The notes beneath the pieces were generated by a model. The model made no database searches, was not told the DNA's origin, and was given only the letters and a program-made list of their open reading frames with translations. Positions 14,742 through 64,000 of a DNA stretch of 64,000 nt are shown here, piece after piece (position 1 is the stretch's first letter; each line of letters begins with the position of its first letter). A program made the position numbers and the translations under genes. Source of the DNA: the human T2T-CHM13v2.0 reference genome, Homo sapiens; the NCBI GenBank assembly GCA_009914755.4, contig CP086569.2, positions 50,688,001 through 50,752,000 of the forward strand. Reading direction: 5' to 3'.

Positions 14742-16861
14742 AGATCCATATTTTTTAAATGAAAAAAAATTTCAAAGGTACTCTGCTTGGTACAATAATC
14801 AAATGTATAAACTGAGGAATAAAACATAACCATGAAACCTACTGATAACTGCATATGGAAAATACAGAGGATAATTTTTTAAATAACATATTTTGAAAGC
14901 CTTAACTAGTAATTTGAAGAGTTGGCATTTGAAAGGCCAGTATGAATATACCTTCAAAGCAGCAACACAGGTTCCCCATGAGAAAAAGCAAACACAGGGG
15001 AAATAAAAACACAAAGGTTCAATCTCTTCTGACCTTTGAAAGACACAGCACAGACAGTGGTCCTTAGGACGAAGAGCAGGAGACCCCTAATTCCGTCACC
15101 ATGGCGATAGGGCATAAACATTGCTGGGTGAGGGCACAATCCACATTGTGAGGTCCAACTGCTGCCAGGAAGACAGGAGTGCTTTTACATAGACCGAAAG
15201 GTCATTGAAGGCTCAGAGTTTTGTTTCAAGAACTGAATCCCAAGCCCACACGTTATTAGGCTGCGCTTCTTAAAACAAGTTATGAGATGGGAAAAAGGGC
15301 ACCCACAAACATACGTATACATTATGTATATAATAATATACAGTATCATATATATAATATATATAACCTATGTATAATATTGTTTTACATCCTGCATCTT
15401 ATTTTATATATATTATATAAAATATAATAATTGATAATATATAAGTTTTATAATTATACAATATGACATATAGTATATATTATAATTTATGACATATATA
15501 ATATATGTTATATATCATATATAGAATATATTATACGGTTAATATACGTATTAAATATAAATTATACATTATATATATTATATATAATATATCAGTTATA
15601 TATAATACCCATTATGCATAATATATATATTATGTCTATATTATATATAGTATAAAACAACATATAATAATATATAATTGTATATATAAAATGCGACATA
15701 TAATATATATTATATTTTATAACATATGTAATATATATTATATATAATACGTTGTATGTATAATACCTATATTAAATATATATTATATGACTATGTTATT
15801 AATTACATGTCACATGTGTTATATATTATATATTTTACATAGAATATACCGGTTACATACAATATATACTATGTTTCCTATAATGTATAATTTATTACAT
15901 GTAAAATAAAGAATGCAATATATTATGTAAAATTTATAACATACAATATGTGGAATGTGATATATATAACATATAATATATGATATATGATATACAGTAT
16001 ATCATATATAATATACAATATATGATTCCTAATATATATGGTATACAATATATATTTATGATATGTATTCTATATGTTTTATATTCTGTTATATATAACT
16101 ATTTGAAATTACATATAACTGTATAATATTTTATGTAAATATGTAATATAATATATATAACTATATAATATATTATATATAACTATATATTATGTTATAT
16201 ATACTTTTATAACATAATTTACATAAAATATCATAATATAATATATATTATATTATTTCATATTACATAATATATATTACATATCACCCAATATAACTAA
16301 CATACATAATATTATAATATAGATTATATTATGTTATATTAAATATCATATATATCATGTATCATATATTCTATAATATATATTACACATTATATAATAT
16401 GTATGTTGTCTATTATGTGATATATATAACTATATATATAATTATATATTTATACATATAACTAGATAAACATGTAATTCTACATATTTTCATTTATAAT
16501 ATGTAGAATTATATAATCATATATAATTATTTATATTCTATAAAAAATTTTATCATTATATAAATTATAATATATAAAAATTATAATATGTACTACAAAT
16601 ATATATATTATATATCATATATTATATAGTACCTTTGTTATATATCATAATACATATAAATGTGTATTATGTTATCTATAATTATATAATTTCATATATA
16701 AGATGTATAATATGTATCATATATTATATATGTTATGTAATATATACAGTATATATAAGATGACACAGGATAAATATTATATACTATGACATATAAAATA
16801 TATGAGGTTATATGTTACATATAAGGCATAGCACATAACATGTAATATATATCATATATAA
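14450..16861. repeat. Unit 6, subfamily A, 2412 bp (8-bp deletion); left breakpoint of the large duplication lies inside it (~15780)
   Basis: A markers present. The TA block lacks tatattat before acgttg. From ~15780 onward the unit matches 52070 onward. Confidence 0.88.
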
Positions 16862-17153
16862 TTTTTTTTTAGACAGAATCTTGTCCTGTTGCACAGGGTG
16901 GGGTACAATGGCGCCATCTTTGCTCACTGCAACTTCTGCCTCACGGGTCCAAGCGATTGTCCTCCCTCAGCCTCCCAGGTAGCTGGGACTACACCACACT
17001 GGGACTACACCAGCTGCCACCATGCCTAGCTAATTTTTTGGATTTTTAGTAGTGACAGCGTTTCACTGTATTGGCCAGGATGGTCTTGATCTCTTCACCT
17101 TGTGATCCCCTTGCCTTGGCCTCCAAATTTGCTGGGATTACAGGCCTGAGCCA
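16862..17153 (-). mobile_element. Alu SINE copy (antisense)
   Basis: Positional copy of the 2359-2650 Alu. Confidence 0.9.
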
Positions 17154-19281
17154 AGATCCATATTTTTTAAATGAAAAAAAATTTCAAAGGTACTCTGCTT
17201 GGTACAATAATCAAATGTATAAACTGAGGAATAAAACATAACCATGAAACCTACTTATAACTGCATATGGAAAATACAGAGGATAATTTTTTAAATAACA
17301 TATTTTGAAAGCCTTAACTAGTAATTTGAAGAGTTGGCATTTGAAAGGCCAGTATGAATATACCTTCAAAGCAGCAACACAGGTTCCCCATGAGAATAAG
17401 CAAACACAGGGGAAATAAAAACACAAAGGTTCAATCTCTTCTGACCTTTGAAAGACACAGCACAGACAGTGGTCCTTAGGACGAAGAGCAGGAGACCCCT
17501 AATTCCGTCACCATGGCGATAGGGCATAAACATTGCTGGGTGAGGGCACAATCCACATTGTGAGGTCCAACTGCTGCCAGGAATACAGGAGTGCTTTTAC
17601 ATAGACCGAAAGGTCATTGAAGGCTCAGAGTTTTGTTTCAAGAACTGAATCCCAAGCCCACACGTTATTAGGCTGCGCTTCTTAAAACAAGTTATGAGAT
17701 GGGAAAAAGGGCACCCACAAACATACGTATACATTATGTATATAATAATATACAGTATCATATATATAATATATATAACCTATGTATAATATTGTTTTAC
17801 ATCCTGCATCTTATGTTATATATATTGTATAAAATATAATAATTGATAATATATAAGTTTTATAATTATACAATAAGACATACAGTATATATTATAATTT
17901 ATGACATTTATAGTATATGTTATATATCATATATAGAATATATTATACGGTTAATATACGTATTAAATATAAATTATACATTATATATATTATATATAAT
18001 ATATCTGTTATATATAATACCCATTATGCATAATAAATATATTATGTCTATGTTATATATAGTATAAAACAACATATAATAATATATAATTGTATATATA
18101 AAATGCCACATATAATATATATTATATTTTCTAACATATGTAATATATATTATATATTATATATAATACGTTGTATGTATAATACCTATATTAAATATAT
18201 ATTATATGACTATGTTATTAATTACATGTCACATGTGTTATATATTATATATTTTACATAGAATATACCGGTTACATACAATATATACTATGTTACGTAT
18301 AATGTATAATTTATTACATGTAAAATAAAGAATGCAATATATTATGTATAATTTATAATATACAATATGTGGAATGTGATATATATAACATATAATATAT
18401 GATATATGATATACAGTATATGATATATAACATACAATATATGATTCCTAATATATATGGTATACAATATATATTTTATGATATGTATTCTATATGTTTT
18501 ATATTCTGTTATATATAACTATTTGAAATTATATATAACTGTATAATATTTTATGTAAATATGTAATATAATATATATAACTATATAATATATTATATAT
18601 AACTATATATTATGTTATATATTCTTTTATAACATAATTTACATAAAATATCATAATATAATATATATTATATTATTTCATATTACATAATATATATTAC
18701 ATATCACCCAATATAACTATCATACATAATATTATAATATAGATTATATTATGTTATGTTAAATATCATATATATCATGTATCATATATTCTATAATATA
18801 TATTACACATTATATAATATGTATGTTGTCTATTATGTGATATATATAACTCTATATATAATTATATTTTTATACATATAACTAGATAAACATGTAATTC
18901 TACATATTTTCATTTATAATATGTAGAATTATATAATCATATATAATTATTTATATTCTATAAAAAATTTTATCATTATATAAATTATAATATATAAAAA
19001 TTATAATATGTACTACAAATATATATACTATATATCATATATGATATAGTACCTTTGTTATATATCATAATACATATAAATGTGTATTATGTTATCTATA
19101 ATTATATAATTTCATATATAAGATGTATAATATGTATCATATATTATATATGTTATGTAATATATATAGAATATATAAGATGACACAGGATAAATATTAT
19201 ATACTATGACATATAAAATATATGAGGTTATATGTTACATATAAGGCATAGCACATAACATGTAATATATATCATATATAA
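16862..19281. repeat. Unit 7, subfamily A, 2420 bp
   Basis: A markers; private variants agcgtttcac, gaataagcaaac and gaatacagg, all shared with unit 22. Confidence 0.9.
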
Positions 19282-62825: not shown

Positions 62826-63117
62826 TTTTTTTTTAGACAGAGTCTTGTCCTGTTGCACAGGGTGGAGTACAATGACGCCATCTTTGCTCACTGCAACATC
62901 TGCCTCACGGGTCCAAGCGATTGTCCTCCCTCAGCCTCCCAGGTAGCTGGGACTACACCACACTGGGACTACACCAGCTGCCACCATACCTAGCTAATTT
63001 TTTGGGATTTTATTAGTGACAGCGTTTCACTGTATTTGCCAGGATGGTCTTGATCTCTTCACCTTGTGATCCCCTTGCCTTGGCCTCCAAATTTGCTGGG
63101 ATTACAGGCCTGAGCCA
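62826..63117 (-). mobile_element. Alu SINE copy (antisense), B-type
   Basis: Positional copy of the 26535 Alu (atgacgcc, ccatacctagc, tgtatttgcc). Confidence 0.9.
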
Positions 63118-64000
63118 AGATCCATATTTTTTAAAAGAAAAAAAATTTCAAAGGTACTCTGCTTGGTACAATAATCAAATGTATAAACTGAGGAATAAAA
63201 CATAACCATGAAACCTACTTATAACTGTATACGGAAAATACAGAGGATAATTTTTTAAATAACATATTTTGAAAGCCTTAACTAGTAATTTGAAGAGTTG
63301 GCATTTGAAAGGCCAGTTTGAATATACCTTCAAAGCATCAACACAGGTTCCCCATGAGAAAAAGCAAACTCAGGGAAAATAAAACCACAAAGGTTCAATC
63401 TCTTCTGACCTTTGAAAGACACAGCACAGACAGTGGTCCTTAGGACGAAGAGCAGGAGACCCCTAATTCCGTCACCATGGCGATAGGGCATAAACATTGC
63501 TGGGTGAGGGCACAATCCACATTGTGAGGTCCAACTGCTGCCAGGAAGACAGGAGTGCTTTTACATAGACCGAAAGGTCATTGAAGGCTCAGAGTTTTGT
63601 TTCAAGAACTGAATCCCAAGCCCACACGTTATTAGGCTGCGCTTCTTAAAACAAGTTATGAGATGGGAAAAAGGGCACCCACAAACATTCGTATACATTA
63701 TTTATATAATAATATACAGTATCATATATATAATATATATAACCTATGTATAATATTGTTTTACATCCTGCATCTTATAATATATATATTGTATAAAATA
63801 TAATAATTGATAATATATAAGTTTTATATTTATACAATATGACATATAGTATATATTATAATTTATGACATATATAATATATGTTATATATCATATATAG
63901 AATATATTATACGGTTAATATACGTATTAAATATAAATTATACATTGTATATATTATATATTATATATCTGTTATATATAATACCCATTATGCATAATAT
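62826..64000. repeat. Unit 26 (partial, cut by window end), subfamily B1 (copy of unit 11)
   Basis: Shares ccagtttgaata and caaagcatcaacac with unit 11. Confidence 0.88.

What the first reader, a model, noticed from the sequence alone, without database searches (positions are those of the whole stretch)
15780..64000. Recent >=12-kb intra-array segmental duplication at an offset of 36,291 bp (15 units)
Segment 15780-27709 recurs at 52070-64000 and then runs off the window. Every recurrent ORF start in the right copy equals the left copy plus exactly 36,291 (17366->53657, 19786->56077, 22199->58490, 24619->60910, 27039->63330). The unusual unit lengths follow in the same order (2420, 2413, 2420, 2420). 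Private variants that appear nowhere else are shared, for example AYSHG, the MWFYF...SLCI form, CLCFFSW, and the transitional Alu ggagtacaaaggcgccatcattg. By eye the copies differ at about 1 site per 300-500 bp (~99.7%). That is much closer than A-type and B-type units are to each other. The left breakpoint falls inside TA-rich blocks, at ~15760-15880 in unit 6 and ~52050-52150 in unit 21. This points to an unequal exchange between misaligned units 15 repeats apart, or to a replication-template switch. Alternatively the whole array is built from a ~36.3-kb supra-repeat whose other copies lie outside the window.
Basis: seen in the sequence. Interest (0 to 1): 0.75.

Follow-up and report, generated by a model that had tools for sequence, protein, structure and literature searches.

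The report
Multi-unit tandem duplication in human HSat1B satellite
The window is a stretch of the human AT-rich satellite HSat1B (the DYZ2 repeat of the Y chromosome and acrocentric short arms), and the finding is a real copy of a run of repeat units 36.3 kb downstream, an ordinary, already documented way in which such arrays grow.

Summary
Window 15,732-27,709 recurs at 52,023-64,000 at a fixed offset of 36,291 bp. There are no indels and 28 mismatches in 11,978 bp (99.77%). Alignments shifted by one or two units reach only 97.2-97.8%. Units 8, 9, 10 and 11 differ from each other by 53-72 alignment columns, yet each has a near-twin 15 units later (3-11 differences), in the same order.

The window is 26.4 units of human HSat1B/DYZ2. 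The modal unit is 2,420 bp, GC is 24.6%, and each unit holds an antisense AluY fragment plus the heptamer ACATACG at the HSATI/AT-rich junction.

The best reading is an in-register tandem duplication of about 15 units by unequal homologous exchange. The crossover lies in a 145-bp interval (15,732-15,876 / 52,023-52,167) of junction unit 22. That unit is a three-part mosaic: B type, generic A type, then unit-7 type.

Of 23 scattered differences, 22 are singletons; eight cluster in unit 26. In its last 57 bp the right copy switches from unit-12 to unit-13 states, which suggests a later one-unit slip.

A 15-unit periodicity does not extend leftwards. Duplications of this kind in DYZ2 are already published, so interest is low. 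Whether copy 2 runs a full 36 kb needs sequence beyond the window.

The parts
1..64000 (+). Array of 26.4 HSat1B/DYZ2-type units. Unit starts are 1, 2418, 4835, 7253, 9671, 12089, 14509, 16921, 19341, 21754, 24174, 26594, then every 2420 to 48374, then 50793, 53212, 55632, 58045, 60465, 62885.
   Evidence: Anchor search. GC 24.6%. One CpG per 135 bp and ACATACG at unit offset 800 in 23 units. Antisense AluY positions 13-288 at 80% identity.
1..14508 (+). A-type block (units 1-6), close to the general human HSat1B consensus.
   Evidence: Units differ from each other by 4-32 columns. Outside contigs carry the A state at most diagnostic columns.
15732..27652 (+). Left copy of the near-identical block: the right part of unit 7, units 8-11, and the left part of unit 12.
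   Evidence: 23 substitutions and no indel against 52,023-63,943.
52023..63943 (+). Right copy of the block: the right part of unit 22, units 23-26, and the left part of unit 27.
   Evidence: Same as the left copy.
15732..52022 (+). Inferred full first copy of the tandem duplicon: 36,291 bp, or 15 units as they stand now.
   Evidence: Inference from the offset and from the single hybrid junction unit. Only its first 11.9 kb can be compared with copy 2 inside the window.
15732..15876 (+). Crossover interval in the left copy (unit 7). It runs from just after unit 7's private 7-bp deletion to the first variant private to units 7 and 22.
   Evidence: Column-by-column comparison. DNA hairpin potential here is ordinary, -6.4 to -14.4 kcal/mol against a unit mean of -11.3 +/- 2.7.
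52023..52167 (+). Crossover interval in the right copy (junction unit 22).
50793..51305 (+). Junction unit 22, segment i: B type at all diagnostic columns, plus private variants at columns 19, 83 and 131.
51687..52022 (+). Junction unit 22, segment ii: generic A type that is not unit-7-like. It shows 8 substitutions and a 7-bp indel against unit 7, with private 924C, 1174C, 1185T and a B state at column 1120. The B-to-A switch lies between 51,306 and 51,686.
26594..50792 (+). B-type block (units 12-21), a locally derived subfamily with a 2-unit sub-periodicity. It lies inside the inferred duplicon.
60949..61484 (+). Cluster of 8 of the 23 inter-copy substitutions, in unit 26.
   Evidence: the simulation gives P about 6e-4. 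Seven of the eight unit-26 states are absent from all other units, and none of these seven is found in 37 outside contigs. The eighth, at 61,226, is the consensus state.
63944..64000 (+). The right copy switches from unit-12 states to unit-13 states at 5 of 5 sites (63,944, 63,947, 63,949, 63,962, 63,979).
   Evidence: Over its 1,116 bp, unit 27 differs from unit 12 only at these 5 sites and from unit 13 only at column 440. Searches agree.

Best explanation
The window is human HSat1B satellite (the DYZ2 repeat). Inside it, a run of about 15 units (36.3 kb; window 15,732-52,022) has been duplicated in tandem. The cause was an unequal but in-register homologous exchange, most likely between sister chromatids. 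One partner was unit 7. The other was a unit 15 repeats downstream that was already a B-type/A-type hybrid. The crossover fell in a 145-bp stretch where both partners were identical A-type sequence (15,732-15,876 / 52,023-52,167). The product is junction unit 22 followed by second copies of units 8, 9, 10, 11 and 12. Afterwards the two copies picked up about 23 point differences. They also acquired one probable conversion tract or mutation cluster in unit 26, and probably a one-unit register change (units 12 and 13 on the left against a single 12/13 fusion unit on the right). Shown: the identity, collinearity, register, mosaic junction and singleton nature of the differences. Inferred: the mechanism, the tandem character, the full 36-kb extent of copy 2, the age and the chromosome.
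For: Identity as HSat1B/DYZ2. The modal unit is 2,420 bp, GC is 24.6% and there is one CpG per 135 bp. ACATACG sits exactly where the GC-richer part meets the AT-rich part. An antisense AluY fragment (positions 13-288) is 80% identical to the consensus. These match the published description: about 2.4 kb, a 2,420-bp consensus, 24% GC, one CpG per 150 bp, a 5'-truncated Alu, and ACATACG at the HSATI/AT junction (10.1101/2022.12.01.518658); and an AluY part 20% diverged (10.1101/2022.12.01.518724). Sixteen unrelated bacterial assemblies and 21 metagenome contigs hold copies; most are 94-99.4% identical and three are 89-91%. This is the human-contaminant pattern that one search's paper reports for HSat1B. 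Duplication. Identity is 99.8% in register against 97.2-97.8% off register. Four mutually distinct units recur in order. Sixty-three variants are shared only by the paired units. Homologous in-register exchange. Junction unit 22 has a normal length of 2,419 bp. It changes from non-unit-7 to unit-7 states at one point without disturbing the phase. Real paralogues. Of the 23 scattered differences, 22 are singletons split 6 left and 16 right; the other copy carries the state seen in all other units and, where covered, in outside contigs. There is no indel across about 7.5 kb of TA-rich sequence. Continuation of copy 2. Unit 27 takes on two rare unit-13 variants (columns 1062 and 1077), found in no other unit. 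Their 21-mers are absent from the 16 bacterial-assembly contigs checked. This fits a 12'/13' fusion within a longer copy. Published context. Tandem duplications by unequal exchange and sister chromatid exchanges occur in Yq12. De novo gains and losses of 1-2 DYZ2 units occur about once per Y transmission (PMC12240836).
Against: Only 11.9 kb of the presumed 36.3-kb second copy lies in the window, so the tandem character is inferred. The 335-bp middle segment of unit 22 matches neither partner visible in the window, so a third, unseen sequence is required. This makes the event more complex than a single two-partner crossover. The five-site switch 21-57 bp before the window end could instead mark the right end of a roughly 12-kb copied patch. 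At the published rate of about one DYZ2-unit indel per Y transmission, several unit indels would be expected between copies over about 2,000 generations. At most one is seen, so either the age or the rates are off. No read-level evidence is available.
Confidence: 0.7

Rival explanations
1. The 36.3-kb module (the transitional units plus the B block) is the period of an iterated higher-order repeat with three or more copies. The window shows only its first 1.3 periods.
For: The first 11.9 kb of the second period match the first period in order. Iterative duplications are documented in Yq12. The array also shows a smaller 2-unit periodicity, so nested periodicities do arise here.
Against: The period does not continue leftwards: units 1-6 differ from units 16-21 by 59-70 columns. 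The 63 variants private to the paired units are almost absent from 37 independent HSat1B contigs, while consensus k-mers at the same sites occur in 12-37 of them. These units are therefore not high-copy genome-wide. That test is weak, because short-read contigs reflect majority sequence.
Confidence: 0.12
2. A roughly 12-kb patch (from the right part of unit 7 to the left part of unit 12) was copied non-reciprocally onto a site 36 kb away. The mechanism would be long-tract gene conversion or break-induced replication with template switching. This gives two junctions, in units 22 and 27, and the sequence between the copies would not be part of any duplication.
For: There is a discontinuity at both ends of the visible block: at 52,023 and at 63,944. 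Interlocus gene conversion is frequent in DYZ1/DYZ2. The junction unit has a complex three-part structure.
Against: Right of the second discontinuity, unit 27 carries two variants otherwise private to unit 13, the very next unit of the left copy. That is expected if the copy continues with a one-unit slip. It would be a coincidence if native recipient sequence resumed there. Twelve kb is far longer than typical conversion tracts (general knowledge).
Confidence: 0.1
3. The assembler produced a false duplication, placing one real block twice.
For: Satellite arrays are hard to assemble, and no reads are available to check.
Against: The copies differ by 23 scattered substitutions and no indel across long TA-rich tracts. 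Sequencing or polishing noise would mostly give indels (general knowledge). Twenty-two of the differences are singletons divided between both copies. The junction unit has private variants of its own. If the source is a hemizygous Y or a homozygous cell line, there is no second haplotype to misplace.
Confidence: 0.04

Closest known systems
Intra-array tandem duplications in DYZ2/HSat1B of Yq12 (T2T-Y, Rhie et al. 2023, 10.1101/2022.12.01.518724, Extended Data Fig. 8; Hallast et al. 2023, 10.1101/2022.12.01.518658)
   Same: The satellite, unit length and composition are the same. Multi-unit duplications are attributed there to unequal exchange, and later smaller deletions or expansions lie inside duplicated sub-arrays.
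   Different: The published examples range up to 5 Mb and span whole DYZ1/DYZ2 blocks. This one is a 36-kb, 15-unit event inside a single array. As far as I found, it has not been described individually. I could not establish that this window lies on the Y.
De novo DYZ2 structural variants in a four-generation pedigree (Porubsky et al. 2025, PMC12240836)
   Same: They are in-register gains or losses of whole DYZ2 units. The probable one-unit difference between the copies (units 12 and 13 against unit 27) is of exactly this kind.
   Different: The observed de novo events were 2,416-4,839 bp (1-2 units). The main event here spans 15 units.
Higher-order repeat formation in alpha satellite by unequal crossing-over (Smith 1976 model; from general knowledge, not tested here)
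   Same: A block of diverged monomers is duplicated as a unit, which creates a longer periodicity.
   Different: Only two partial periods are visible and the period fails to the left. It is not an established higher-order repeat.

Membership tests
HSat1B / DYZ2 satellite | Tandem unit of about 2.4 kb with a 2,420-bp consensus | tested here: met
   26 full units of 2,412-2,420 bp, with a mode of 2,420.
HSat1B / DYZ2 satellite | About 24% GC and about one CpG per 150 bp | tested here: met
   24.6% GC and one CpG per 135 bp.
HSat1B / DYZ2 satellite | Composite unit: an extremely AT-rich part, a 5'-truncated ancient AluY part (about 20% diverged) and a GC-richer HSATI part | tested here: met
   The GC profile is 0.26-0.60 over offsets 0-800 and 0.08-0.21 over 800-2300. 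A weak Rfam hit to the Alu-derived mir-1268 lies on the minus strand. The HSATI part was not compared with a reference HSATI consensus.
HSat1B / DYZ2 satellite | Heptamer ACATACG at the HSATI/AT-rich junction | tested here: met
   Present at unit offset 800 in 23 units, exactly at the composition step. Units 12, 13, 26 and 27 carry a variant there.
HSat1B / DYZ2 satellite | Direct alignment to the published DYZ2 consensus, and a chromosomal location on Yq12 or an acrocentric short arm | not testable with these tools
   No human reference or DYZ2 consensus is held by the tools. As a surrogate, 37 contaminant or metagenome contigs match at 89-99.4% identity. The Y is more likely on abundance alone (14 Mb in T2T-Y).
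Tandem duplication by unequal homologous exchange | Two collinear copies far more alike than other pairs of units at the same phase | tested here: met
   99.8% against 97.2-97.8%. The distance matrix agrees.
Tandem duplication by unequal homologous exchange | In-register hybrid junction unit of normal length at the point where copy 2 starts | tested here: met
   Unit 22 is 2,419 bp. It switches to unit-7 private variants after column 1229.
Tandem duplication by unequal homologous exchange | Copy 2 spans the whole distance between the copies, and there is only one novel junction | not testable with these tools
   The window ends 11.98 kb into copy 2.
Higher-order repeat with a 15-unit period | The period holds across the array (three or more periods) | tested here: not met
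   Units 1-6 differ from units 16-21 by 59-70 columns. At offset 36,291 the identity before 15,400 is at background level. The right side is untestable.
Structure-driven (palindrome or hairpin) rearrangement of AT-rich DNA | The breakpoint coincides with an exceptional inverted repeat or hairpin | tested here: not met
   Sliding 120-nt DNA folds across unit 7 give -6.4 to -14.4 kcal/mol in the breakpoint interval, against a unit mean of -11.3 +/- 2.7 and a minimum of -18.7 elsewhere.

The most novel reading that the evidence does not exclude
The 36.3-kb module is the founding period of a 15-unit higher-order repeat now spreading within an HSat1B array, a satellite usually described as a simple 2.4-kb repeat. 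The nested A-to-B ladder of units 7-14 would then be a preserved record of how a new subfamily arose and was later amplified as a block.
Probability: 0.12. Interest if true: 0.35.

Novelty: already known. Interest (0 to 1): 0.14.

Why it matters
It adds little that is new. The window gives a clean, base-resolved example of how HSat1B/DYZ2 arrays grow by in-register unequal exchange. The crossover is mapped to 145 bp, the junction unit is a mosaic, and the later point changes can be polarised. Block variants of this kind could serve as markers for following array evolution across Y haplogroups, or as paralogue-specific anchors when validating assemblies. The satellite and this mode of evolution are both already published.

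Tried and rejected
1. A hairpin or palindrome trigger at the breakpoint: the folding energies there are ordinary.
2. Differences between the copies caused by gene conversion from other units in the window: rejected for 22 of 23 sites, whose derived states are singletons and do not appear in the bacterial-assembly contigs.
3. A supra-repeat covering the whole array: rejected on the left side.
4. The ORFs as genes: no Pfam match. Three exact-product look-ups for the 61-aa ORF variants found nothing, so the window could not be extended that way.
5. Rfam gave only sub-threshold Alu-related hits.
6. The repeat finder rejected the parameters I needed; scripts and blastn were used instead.
7. The genome and metagenome scans gave independent HSat1B units. 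Only 5-10 kb of the two 54-kb metagenome contigs could be retrieved, and they are not the same locus.
8. The 7-bp length difference (2,413 against 2,420) here is a TA-tract deletion at columns 1223-1229. It is not the ACATACG heptamer discussed by Hallast et al..
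Full report
**What the window is.** The 64-kb window is 75% A+T. It consists of 26.4 head-to-tail units of 2,412-2,420 bp, with a mode of 2,420.

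- Each unit starts with a GC-richer 0.8 kb (GC 0.26-0.60). This is followed by 1.5 kb of TA-rich low-complexity sequence (GC 0.08-0.21).
- The heptamer ACATACG sits exactly at the step from GC-richer to AT-rich sequence in 23 units.
- CpG density is one per 135 bp.

These features match the published description of DYZ2/HSat1B point by point. That description gives a unit of about 2.4 kb, a 2,420-bp consensus, 24% GC and one CpG per 150 bp. It lists an AT-rich repeat, a 5'-truncated Alu and HSATI, with ACATACG at the HSATI/AT junction (10.1101/2022.12.01.518658). The AluY part is reported as 20% diverged (10.1101/2022.12.01.518724).

An invariant 50-mer of the unit occurs in short contigs of 16 unrelated bacterial assemblies and in 21 metagenome contigs. 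Most of these are 94-99.4% identical to the window's units, and three are 89-91%. This is the human-contamination pattern that the T2T-Y paper reports for HSat1B. I could not decide between Yq12 and an acrocentric short arm. The Y is likelier on abundance alone.

**The observation.** At a fixed offset of 36,291 bp, identity jumps from background to 0.98-1.00 per 200-bp bin from about 15,800 to the last comparable base.

- The last upstream mismatch is at 15,731. From 15,732 to 27,709 there are 28 mismatches in 11,978 bp and no indel.
- blastn gives 97.1-97.8% for alignments shifted by one to four units. The in-register alignment of 13,006-27,709, which includes the poorer left 2.7 kb, reaches 99.29%.
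- In an alignment of all 26 full units, pairs 8/23, 9/24, 10/25 and 11/26 differ at 4, 3, 4 and 11 columns. Units 8-11 differ from one another at 53-72 columns.
- Sixty-three variants are shared only by the two members of a pair.
'MWFYF' was not found verbatim.

The ORFs used as landmarks are 61-aa reading frames in satellite DNA with no Pfam match. High identity alone is not special here, because units 14, 16 and 18 differ by 1-2 columns. The decisive point is that four mutually distinct units recur in the same order across ten intervening units. Offset 36,291 is the only long-range diagonal rich in exact 300-mers.

**The junction.** Units 1-6 form an 'A' type and units 12-21 a 'B' type. Unit 22 (50,793-53,211) is a three-part mosaic.

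- Segment i runs to column 512 (50,793-51,305). It carries every B-type state plus three private variants.
- Segment ii covers columns 894-1229 (51,687-52,022). It is A type, but it lacks unit 7's four private substitutions and its 7-bp deletion. It has three private variants and one B state. That makes 8 substitutions and one indel against unit 7 in 335 bp.
- Segment iii starts at or before column 1374. It shares all of unit 7's private variants.

The start of near-identity therefore lies between 15,732 and 15,876 (52,023-52,167). Unit 22 has a normal length of 2,419 bp, so the exchange was in register, as expected for homologous recombination.

Segment ii matches neither a B unit nor unit 7, so a third sequence is required. 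The simplest reading is that the downstream partner was already a B/A hybrid unit and that the crossover occurred where both partners were A type. DNA folding energies in the breakpoint interval are ordinary for the unit. Nothing points to a hairpin-driven event.

**The right end.** The partial unit 27 is identical to unit 12 up to column 1058. It then differs at five sites within 36 bp. At all five it agrees with unit 13, including two variants found in no other unit.

- Units 12 and 13 share their left halves. Unit 27 differs from unit 13 at one site in 1,116 bp.
- The natural reading is a one-unit register change between the copies. The right copy holds a single 12/13 fusion unit, or the left copy gained a unit.
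- One- and two-unit changes are the dominant de novo structural change in DYZ2, at about one per Y transmission (PMC12240836).
- This reading implies that the second copy continues beyond the window at an offset of 33,871 bp.
- The window ends 21 bp after the last of these sites, so I cannot exclude that the copied block ends there.

**Changes since the event.** Of the 23 scattered differences, 22 are singletons. One copy carries a state seen in no other unit. The other copy carries the state of all other units and, where covered, of the outside contigs.

- Six singletons are derived on the left and 16 on the right.
- Eight of the 23 differences lie within 536 bp of unit 26 (60,949-61,484). 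Simulation gives P of about 6e-4 for such clustering. This suggests a conversion tract from an unseen donor or a mutation cluster.
- There are 12 transitions and 11 transversions.

Divergence is 1.3-1.9 per kb. At the published Yq12 rate (3.86e-7 per bp per generation) this gives about 1,700-2,500 generations. At the acrocentric short-arm rate (1.33e-7) it gives about 5,000-7,300 generations. These figures are rough. At the published rate of unit indels, more than one unit change would be expected between the copies.

**Alternatives.**

- A 15-unit periodicity of the whole array is rejected on the left. Units 1-6 differ from units 16-21 at 59-70 columns. It remains possible that further copies lie to the right.
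- The pair-private variants are almost absent from 37 independent contigs. This argues weakly against a high-copy module.
- A 12-kb non-reciprocal patch is possible. It does not explain why the sequence after the second discontinuity carries the private variants of the next unit of the left copy.
- An assembly artefact is unlikely. The differences are substitutions only and are divided between both copies. Reads are still needed to settle this.

**Comparison with what is known.** The T2T-Y paper reports tandem duplications in Yq12, up to 5 Mb, evolving by unequal exchange. It also reports later smaller expansions and deletions inside HSat1B sub-arrays, and sister chromatid exchanges in about 15% of Strand-seq libraries. 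Hallast et al. report local expansion and contraction within DYZ2 arrays. The pedigree study reports de novo whole-unit gains and losses and frequent interlocus gene conversion.

The present event is one more instance of this behaviour. It is 15 units long and mapped to the base. I rate it as already known in kind and of low interest.

**Seen in passing.**

- At 39 diagnostic columns, units 9-14 carry a strictly nested, interspersed series of B states. Counts rise from 2-3 in units 7-8 to 39 in unit 14. The A state is the common one outside the window. The physical order of units thus preserves the stepwise origin of the local B subfamily, and this ladder is what was duplicated.
- The B block has its own 2-unit periodicity.
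- One HSat1B fragment sits between N gaps inside a 5.16-Mb scaffold of Nostocoides japonicum.

Noticed in passing
window 14509-33853 (units 7-14), repeated in 50793-64000: At 39 columns that separate A-type from B-type units, units 9-14 carry strictly nested, interspersed sets of B states. Counts per unit are 3, 2, 9, 17, 33, 37, 37 and 39 for units 7-14. Physical order therefore mirrors stepwise mutation accumulation, not blockwise recombination. Outside contigs show the A state at most of these columns, so B is a locally derived subfamily.
   Followed up: partly
window 26594-50792 (units 12-21): The B block has a 2-unit (4,840-bp) sub-periodicity. Units 14, 16 and 18 differ by 1-2 columns and units 15 and 17 by 6. 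Offset 4,840 has the most shared exact 300-mers, and the longest exact run is 2,965 bp at 32,280-35,244.
   Followed up: partly
window 60949-61484 (unit 26): Eight inter-copy substitutions lie within 536 bp (P about 6e-4). Seven of the unit-26 states are found in no other unit and in none of the outside contigs checked. This may be a conversion tract from an unseen donor or a mutation cluster.
   Followed up: partly
window 15731/15732, 20563-20570 region and 56854 region (alignment columns 1223-1229): The same 7-bp TA-tract deletion is present in units 7, 9 and 24, but not in unit 8, 22 or 23. It is either a recurrent slippage or a converted indel. It is not the ACATACG heptamer behind the 2,413/2,420 lengths discussed by Hallast et al..
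   Followed up: partly
window 7253-12088 (units 4-5): Units 4 and 5 differ at only 4 columns, with an exact run of 1,465 bp at offset 2,418. This looks like a separate recent one-unit duplication in the A block.
   Followed up: no
L006:5897-6920 (NZ_HF570958.1, Nostocoides japonicum T1-X7, 5.16-Mb scaffold): A 1,024-bp HSat1B fragment (97.4% identical to the window's A-type units, GC about 0.4) sits between two 100-N gaps in a 70-77% GC bacterial scaffold. It is a human contaminant scaffolded into a bacterial genome record. Fifteen other bacterial assemblies hold stand-alone HSat1B contigs.
   Followed up: yes
L020 (BNJU01004413.1, 54.6 kb) and L037 (BNJT01002008.1, 54.1 kb): Two long metagenome contigs are HSat1B arrays, 96.7-97.8% identical to the window's units and closer to A type than to B type. 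Only 5-10 kb of each could be retrieved. They are not the same locus as the window.
   Followed up: partly
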